Assembly (NCBI GenBank): GCA_964016885.1
Contig: CAXHJY010000505.1
Location: 1-58,091, forward strand
Source: Eledone cirrhosa
Taxonomy: Eukaryota
DNA length: 58,091 bases
Direction: 5' to 3'
Of this stretch, positions 12,501 to 12,826 are shown in pieces (within the stretch, counting starts at the first letter, position 1; the number at the start of each line of letters is the position of its first letter). The notes beneath the pieces are model-generated. The model searched no databases, was not told where the DNA came from, and saw only the letters and a program-made list of their open reading frames with translations. A program made the position numbers and the translations under genes.

Positions 12501-12826
12501 GAGGCACCCCTCCATCTCACCTCTTGCACGCAGCACACATCCACCTGCCTTCTCTCCAGCATCTCCGCTATTTCAGCAGACCTACCTCTGAGAGTGCCAA
12601 CATTAAGTGTTGCAACTCTGAGATGCGACGTCTTCATATTTTTCTATGCTGTTTTGTTGCTGTGCTGATAAGCTTTTTGGCATTGATACACTGGTTGGAT
12701 GCCCTTCCTAACACCAGCGCCACTTTACAGCATGGACTGGGTGCTTTTATTTGTGCCACCAGCACTAGAGAGGATGTCTTACTAGACTCAAGGGCCCTCT
12801 CTACCCCTCCATTTTACAGCATGGTC

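What the first reader, a model, noticed from the sequence alone, without database searches (positions are those of the whole stretch)
12685..12772. Covarying pseudoknot + hairpin module: 5' UTR in RTE-C, but 3' UTR in RTE-A/B and SINE body
Seen: the module [stem-loop]-A-rich linker-[loop complement]...CTGTAAA..TGGTGTTAGGAAGGGCATCCA lies just upstream of the RTE-C ATG, but downstream of the stop codon (in tandem units) in A (~15154-15290) and B (52326-52450). Pairings covary: B CGTGG-aGGTG-CCACG..A6..gCACC; A TCGTG-tagGTGT-CACGA..An..ACAC and CCGTGT-AGGca-ACACGG..A5..CCT; C GTGC-tGGTG-GCAC..aaataaaag-CACC. Known: bipartite RTE-derived non-autonomous elements retain 5' and 3' RTE pieces. Inference: an H-type pseudoknot cis-element (RT binding, translation or cleavage) was relocated when A and B captured a bipartite tail.
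Basis: partly seen in the sequence, partly recalled or inferred. Interest (0 to 1): 0.7.

Follow-up and report, generated by a model that had tools for sequence, protein, structure and literature searches.

The report
Relocated RTE retrotransposon RNA signal
A short sequence that jumping genes of the RTE family normally carry in front of their gene sits behind the gene in two lineages here and inside a short parasite element; it likely folds into an RNA signal needed for copying, and seems able to work from either end.

Summary
The 19-nt core (…GGAAGGGCATCC) occurs 13 times: once in the RTE-C 5' UTR, 10 times in RTE-A/B-type 3' ends, twice in a tRNA/CORE-like SINE. It belongs to the RTE-C family: variant contigs span the module-ORF junction. 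The core is a known RTE 5'-UTR piece. Hagfish RTE-2/RTE-4_EBu carry it 5' and five hagfish SINEs keep it as their bipartite part (PMC7245038 supplement); two unrelated RTEs found here also carry it 5'. A and B keep an ATG 28-32 nt behind the core and then a second copy of the RTE tail, the layout of a captured bipartite element. The A/B module is 84-94% identical while four-fold sites are 39% identical. Hairpins show compensatory pairs. The small pseudoknot is possible in 4 of 5 unit types, but its helix hardly covaries and it is missing from most outside relatives. No ribozyme family matches, and retention inside SINEs and 3' UTRs argues against cleavage. Best reading: a non-cleaving RNA cis-element for mobilisation, moved 3' in autonomous lineages. 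New variant of a known kind.

The parts
9551..12829 (-). RTE-C LINE copy: 193-nt 5' UTR, single APE-RT ORF broken by a premature TGA (12455-57) and frameshifts, tail overlapping the ORF end, (GAT)n
12809..12824 (-). Hairpin H1 (CCAU-GCUGUAAA-AUGG) near the apparent 5' end of RTE-C, after a T31 run
   Evidence: sequence; fold
12766..12803 (-). Long hairpin in the RTE-C 5' UTR
   Evidence: MFE fold
12740..12765 (-). Small stem-loop, A-rich linker and loop complement (predicted H-type pseudoknot GGUG/CACC)
   Evidence: 11/1500 shuffles
12720..12735 (-). Hairpin H2 (CCAU-GCUGUAAA-GUGG)
12679..12719 (-). Conserved RTE 5'-UTR core (stem, UAGGAAGGGCAU, stem') plus downstream AUGCC, which is an out-of-frame upstream AUG and a possible pairing partner
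12635..12637 (-). RTE-C start codon (MKTSHLRVATLNVG...)
15154..15291 (+). RTE-A 3' UTR module: PK1-H2-PK2-H3-core
15302..15406 (+). RTE-A leftover ATG (28 nt after the core), spacer, second RTE tail and (GAT)n
52311..52461 (+). RTE-B 3' UTR module: hairpin-PK1-H2-PK2-H3-core
52474..52585 (+). RTE-B leftover ATG (32 nt after the core), spacer, second RTE tail and (GAT)n
7775..8125 (-). SINE: tRNA-like head, CORE-like body, B-type single unit plus core, RTE-C-type tail
   Evidence: (93.9% to B over 114 nt)
45113..45452 (-). Second copy of the same SINE
54022..54282 (+). RTE-A 3' UTR copy with a 112-nt tandem duplication of H2-PK2-H3-core
16359..16620 (+). Further B-type 3' module (also 26488-26748 and 46582-46840)
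3627..3885 (-). Further A-type 3' module (also about 43960-44216 on -, and a truncated fragment from 27240 on +)

Best explanation
The module is the conserved RTE-LINE 5'-UTR domain that bipartite SINEs keep; it likely acts as a non-cleaving RNA structure that the RTE protein binds together with the 3' tail, and lineages A and B likely gained it behind their ORF by joining to a bipartite element. Shown: identity with the hagfish RTE 5'-UTR piece; 5' position in C and two other RTEs; 3' position in A/B, followed by a leftover ATG and a second tail; absence from both A 5' ends in the window; strong conservation. Inferred: the RNA fold (hairpin H plus core stem with a purine loop; small upstream pseudoknots as accessory, duplicated units), protein binding, the joining route (read-through into a downstream bipartite copy, or template switch), and later loss of the 5' copy.
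For: [quoted passage not shown] Core 5' of the ORF in L001 (45.6% aa to B) and L009; the RTE 3' end in L009 and the RTE-C 3' end lack it. Variant contigs span the C module-ORF junction (X6 12595-12748, X1 12587-12702). Contig cover is continuous from the A ORF through module and tail in X1, with one ORF-to-tail skip contig among the 15 joints shown. A vs B: core 34/36, units 77/92, tail 34/38, against four-fold sites 110/284. First ATG lies 28 (A) and 32 (B) nt after the core, as in L001 (20) and L009 (29); the new A/B tails translate like the C and L009 C-termini. Core stem 91.7% paired in 14 rows by G-U-type one-sided changes on the sense strand, which points to RNA. Precedent: R2 protein binds a 5'-UTR pseudoknot independently of cleavage (PMC6765202 passage).
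Against: No binding or mobilisation data. The core has no double-sided change in 14 rows and does not beat its shuffles; it was also the search pattern, so its invariance in L001-L017 is partly built in. The hairpin-core is over 1000-fold more abundant than the A ORF end in X6, so conversion from SINEs could explain part of the A/B likeness. The true 5' end of B is not in the window. The remnant of an old tail at the ORF end passes in 1 of 12 comparisons only (A vs C tail 7/2000). A+B monophyly is not established.
Confidence: 0.5

Rival explanations
1. The domain is a cap-independent translation or ribosome-docking element. In 5' UTRs it positions the ribosome on the nearby AUG; in SINEs and 3' UTRs it parks the RNA on ribosomes where RTE protein is made, as Alu does through SRP9/14.
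For: An AUG follows the core at 13-32 nt in C, A, B, L001 and L009. By eye the core follows a twister-type sequence in RTE-2_EBu. Twister-cleaved Perere-3 (RTE clade) leaders support reporter translation (PMC8501958 passages).
Against: In A/B there is no useful ORF behind it and their 5' UTR works without it. The window SINE has no nearby AUG. In C the nearest AUG is out of frame.
Confidence: 0.25
2. The 3' module is a passenger: A/B picked up the end of a very abundant SINE and stay alike through repeated recombination, without the module doing anything there.
For: The SINE module is 93.9% identical to B's; the hairpin-core is far more abundant than the ORF in X6 and X7; single copies carry pair-breaking changes (46582 copy, B unit 2).
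Against: A and B differ at 15 of 92 unit positions, with compensatory pairs among them. The window SINE lacks the second unit and the ATG spacer that A and B share, so it cannot be the donor of the whole block.
Confidence: 0.12
3. It is a DNA-level internal promoter or enhancer; a 3' copy could drive the next element in nested RTE clusters.
For: Kojima 2018 speculates that conserved RTE 5' pieces bind transcription regulators; the window is a cluster of nested RTEs.
Against: Changes keep sense-strand G-U pairs and hairpin pairs, which a DNA site would not require.
Confidence: 0.08
4. It is a self-cleaving ribozyme of a new or permuted class.
For: RTE elements do use 5' ribozymes. Hairpin H reads N4-GC-U-GUAAA-N4', like twister P2 with its flanks, and sits where the twister sits in RTE-2_EBu (by eye).
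Against: No Rfam hit and no twister P4 loop, hammerhead, pistol or HDV descriptor in the module regions. Cleavage would cut A/B ORFs from their tails and SINE heads from their bodies, yet the 3.3-kb B copy at 49.1-52.6 kb and headed SINEs were copied whole.
Confidence: 0.05

Closest known systems
RTE-2_EBu / RTE-4_EBu 5' UTR and bipartite hagfish SINEs (Kojima 2020, PMC7245038)
   Same: Same core (GGAAGGGCATCC in a GGTTG...GTAAAA or ATAAAA frame), in the 5' UTR shortly before an ATG and kept in SINE bodies next to the tail.
   Different: There it is 3' only in non-autonomous SINEs; here it is 3' in two ORF-bearing lineages. The passages read propose no fold for it. Upstream parts differ (twister-type sequence in RTE-2_EBu, another pseudoknot geometry in RTE-4_EBu, both by eye).
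Bipartite RTE-derived SINE bodies, Ceph-domain 3' half, HaSE1/3 (Kojima 2018, PMC5786205)
   Same: Internal RTE 5'-UTR piece joined to an RTE tail; tail exchange; ribozymes excluded from SINE bodies.
   Different: The exact core is absent from that supplement. The Ceph-domain piece is another sequence; the HaSE/RTE-2_DPl piece looks like a distant relative by eye only.
Twister T-variants of Schistosoma Perere-3 (Liu 2021, PMC8501958)
   Same: RTE clade, structured 5' UTR; the twister ends in GUAAA-P2'-GAGGG followed by GGUUGG, the position taken here by hairpin H and the core stem.
   Different: P3, P4 and the CCCAAGC loop are missing here, and the module is not at the 5' end.
R2 5'-UTR pseudoknot bound by R2 protein; SIDE elements
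   Same: 5' RNA structure used in integration apart from cleavage; kept in internally deleted parasites (PMC6765202 passage).
   Different: Other clade, no sequence likeness tested, and no 3' relocation mentioned in the passages read.

Membership tests
RTE-clade LINE (A, B, C) | Single ORF with APE endonuclease then RT | tested here: met
   Pfam Exo_endo_phos(_2) and RVT_1 in all three; no ORF1 upstream
RTE-clade LINE (A, B, C) | Short conserved tail ending in a microsatellite | tested here: met
   (GAT)n ends
RTE-clade LINE (A, B, C) | RT groups with named RTE references | not tested
   Trees held only window and L001/L009 proteins; the clade label rests on architecture and the shared 5' core with RTE-2/4_EBu
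RTE 5'-UTR domain kept in bipartite SINEs | Same sequence in the 5' UTR of autonomous RTEs | tested here: met
RTE 5'-UTR domain kept in bipartite SINEs | Joined to an RTE 3' tail inside a SINE with a small-RNA head | tested here: met
   window SINE (head tRNA-like by eye, ARAGORN 0 genes); L015/L016; hagfish SINEs
RTE 5'-UTR domain kept in bipartite SINEs | Needed in cis for retrotransposition | not testable with these tools
   needs a mobilisation assay
H-type pseudoknot | Loop complementary to a downstream segment across a short linker | tested here: met
   4 of 5 unit types
H-type pseudoknot | Compensatory changes in the second helix | tested here: inconclusive
   one double change, two mismatches, one shifted register
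Twister ribozyme | P4 hairpin with the NCCYAAGC loop and both tertiary pairings | tested here: not met
   descriptor (recalled; loop seen) 0 hits in 7 regions; Rfam none
HDV-like, hammerhead or pistol ribozyme | Conserved catalytic core motifs | tested here: not met
   Rfam none; recalled short descriptors gave no hit in the module regions, two weak HDV-loop words in one A 5' flank only
CORE-SINE | tRNA head followed by a CORE domain | tested here: inconclusive
   CCTTGAGCAAG..CACTT and a CTGTAGAAATG hairpin resemble the MIR CORE seen; compared by eye only

The most novel reading that the evidence does not exclude
RTE LINEs depend on a portable, non-cleaving RNA docking element (small pseudoknot, a hairpin that is a relic of twister P2 with P3/P4 deleted, and a conserved purine-loop stem) that works from either end of the RNA. 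An autonomous lineage rewired itself by moving it next to the 3' tail, so the whole recognition signal now lies in one 250-nt block and the 5' UTR was free to be replaced.
Probability: 0.2. Interest if true: 0.7.

Novelty: new variant of a known kind. Interest (0 to 1): 0.42.

Why it matters
Why only a few LINE clades give bipartite parasites, and what the kept 5' piece does, is left open in Kojima 2018. Three co-resident families with the same piece 5' or 3' are a natural swap experiment that makes this testable. RTE proteins are also used for RNA-templated gene insertion with templates flanked by both UTRs (PMC13708176); a compact 3'-only signal would bear on template design. It also shows sequence flowing back from parasite-type elements into autonomous LINEs.

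Tried and rejected
No whole genome is held, so no genome-wide covariation was possible.

Rfam: 0 at gathering score; only chance hits at E<=10 on two module regions; only hairpin miRNA models on 10 loci.

Viral contigs: 0 hits for the long pattern; 4 hits for the short one lack the stems and flanks and were set aside as chance (L005-L008). L004, L012 and L017 overlap L003, L011 and L016 and were dropped before counting. L009-L017 sit in bacterial or archaeal MAG records but look like contaminating animal repeats.

No RNA holder listed. The raw-read run X21 laid nothing.

A first pair count on the unit alignment used miscounted columns and was redone.

I tested a second pseudoknot in the core (GGGCAU with a downstream GC[C/U]). 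The total score was 188 against a null mean of 149.5 (0/5000; 18 related sequences), and the two controls were null (p 0.53, 0.23). It has no double change, 70% pairing, and competes with an inner helix (87% overall), so it is left open.

The old-tail remnant at the ORF ends passed 1 of 12 comparisons. The single-capture tree test is unresolved. In X7, 94% of depth differs at 15226-27, which breaks the A2 pairing unless an unlisted loop change compensates. Earlier-findings look-ups returned nothing. No protein homolog search was run, and the host was not determined.

Full report
Setting. The window is AT-microsatellite-rich animal DNA packed with non-LTR elements; no whole genome is held. Three related single-ORF APE-RT families are present: A (for example 40183-43518), B (49106-52273) and C (minus strand, 12829 to about 9551). 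They are 72% (A-B), 67% (B-C) and 65% (A-C) identical in protein, but only 110/284, 52/171 and 52/155 identical at four-fold sites. The host was not determined; a likeness to octopus repeats is recalled, not tested.

Observation. The 12-mer GGAAGGGCATCC occurs 13 times: 1 in the C 5' UTR, 6 in A-type 3' ends (one truncated fragment, one tandem duplicate), 4 in B-type 3' ends and 2 in a SINE. A profile HMM finds these 13 and nothing in either A 5' end, the C 3' end or the L009 3' end. In C the order is hairpin H1, a long hairpin, small stem-loop with A-rich linker and loop complement, hairpin H2, core, and then the ATG at 12637. This copy has a premature TGA at 12455-57 and an out-of-frame AUG 13 nt after the core. 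In A and B the small unit is doubled and lies about 50-100 nt after the stop codon.

Is the 12.7-kb module a lone SINE? No. Contigs from public runs cover the whole 5' UTR in X1, and variant contigs bridge module and ORF (X6 12595-12748, X1 12587-12702). For A, cover in X1 is continuous from ORF to tail, and one contig among the 15 joints shown (of 96) skips from ORF end to tail. In X6 and X7 the hairpin-core is far more abundant than the ORF, so a very large SINE family shares it.

Relatives. Pattern scans gave 4 metagenome loci, 4 viral loci and 9 genome-collection loci. The viral ones lack the flanks and were set aside. L001 and L009 are RTEs (46-53% aa to B) with the core in the 5' UTR; several others are SINE-like with a tRNA-like head and an RTE-type tail. 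[quoted passage not shown] Kojima 2018 (PMC5786205; parts 2-4 of 5 of the text; supplement searches and part 1 of 15) sets out the bipartite model and notes that a ribozyme in a SINE body would cut off the head. By eye, RTE-2_EBu has a twister-type sequence just before the core (compare PMC8501958, passages, supplement passages). RTE-4_EBu and three SINEs have a different small pseudoknot with one compensatory change. These were not computed.

Structure. The small stem-loop has two columns with double changes, and hairpin H varies in step. The pseudoknot helix GGUG/CACC is unchanged in B1, the SINE and C, mismatched in A1 and B2, and shifted in A2; one flanking pair changes on both sides. The descriptor is met by 4 of 5 unit types at 0-11 of 1500 shuffles. 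In X1, 47% of depth has C>T at 15212, which would lengthen the A2 helix to 4 bp; in X7 a change at 15226-27 breaks it. Only 2 of 8 outside loci have such a pseudoknot upstream, at 22/400 and 47/400 shuffles. The core forms a 6-bp stem, 91.7% paired in 14 rows, with one-sided G-U-type changes only and no excess over shuffles. Its GGGCAU can pair either inward or with a downstream GC[C/U]; the data do not decide. Nested folds are not unusually stable. So hairpins are supported, the small pseudoknot is plausible but local, and the deeply conserved part is the core.

How it got 3'. A and B are collinear from the first unit to the tail: units 77/92, core 34/36, spacer 37/59, tail 34/38. Both keep an ATG 28 and 32 nt after the core, like the 5' copies in L001 (20 nt) and L009 (29 nt). 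Their tails translate like the ORF-overlapping ends of C and L009. That is the layout of an internally deleted RTE (5' domain, start codon, tail) placed behind a complete ORF. A's ORF end resembles C's tail (7/2000, 1 of 12 comparisons), a weak hint that the block was appended rather than swapped in. Since C, L001, L009 and the hagfish elements have it 5', the 3' position is likely derived. One capture is the simplest reading but is not shown: A+B support is 90/96 with a distant outgroup and 55/38 without, and the alternatives are not rejected (p-AU 0.09, 0.33). B's own 5' end is truncated in the window. The window SINE is a further chimera, with a B-type unit and a C-type tail.

Function. Cleavage is unlikely: there is no family match, and the module is copied intact inside long elements and headed SINEs. 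Sense-strand G-U changes favour RNA over DNA. Retention where no ORF follows favours a role in mobilisation, most simply binding by the RTE protein along with the tail, as described for the R2 5' pseudoknot (PMC6765202 passages): 0.5. Ribosome docking is the main rival (0.25), then passenger status with SINE-driven conversion (0.12), DNA element (0.08) and ribozyme (0.05). All function statements are inference.

Novelty. The domain and its use in bipartite SINEs are known. I found no description of its fold, or of its move into the 3' UTR of ORF-bearing RTEs, in eight full-text searches or in passages of PMC4758252, PMC13282606, PMC9115989, PMC10085705 and PMC13708176. Figures, Repbase entries, most subscription papers and bioRxiv supplements were not visible and may hold it. 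Verdict: new variant of a known kind, interest 0.42.

Noticed in passing
window ORFs of A (aa 851-894) and B (aa 793-836): A PHD finger follows the RT domain in A and B (Pfam); C has the matching Cys-rich stretch.
   Followed up: partly
window 30122-33907 and 36187-39962: Two 3.8-kb arms, 99.3% identical and inverted, flank a 715-aa open frame (33921-36068) that looks Penelope-like (RT plus GIY-YIG-type end) by eye.
   Followed up: no
window 17589-22554 (-): Two-ORF L1/Tx1-like element with an intact 1111-aa APE-RT-zf ORF.
   Followed up: partly
window 49147-52583: A 5'-truncated B copy is inserted inside an A copy with about 4 nt duplicated (GACG) and an 18-nt tandem repeat at its 5' junction; it is 99.2% identical to the B copy at 23402-26748.
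   Followed up: partly
window 12830-12860: A run of 31 T directly precedes the apparent RTE-C 5' end; unclear whether it belongs to the element or is the poly(A) of a plus-strand insert.
   Followed up: no
window 45536-45638: About 100 nt of B ORF inverted next to the same sequence, making a fold-back at the 5' junction of a B fragment.
   Followed up: no
PMC7245038 supplement file 2, RTE-2_EBu first ~70 nt: By eye a complete twister-type ribozyme at the 5' end of a hagfish RTE; not mentioned in the passages read and not computed here.
   Followed up: no
L009-L017: Animal RTE and SINE repeats sit in contigs filed under bacterial and archaeal MAGs, likely binning contamination; L009 holds two RTEs head to tail.
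   Followed up: partly
window 15053-15110 and 52290-52312: C-rich tracts separate the stop codon from the module in both A and B and vary in length between copies.
   Followed up: no
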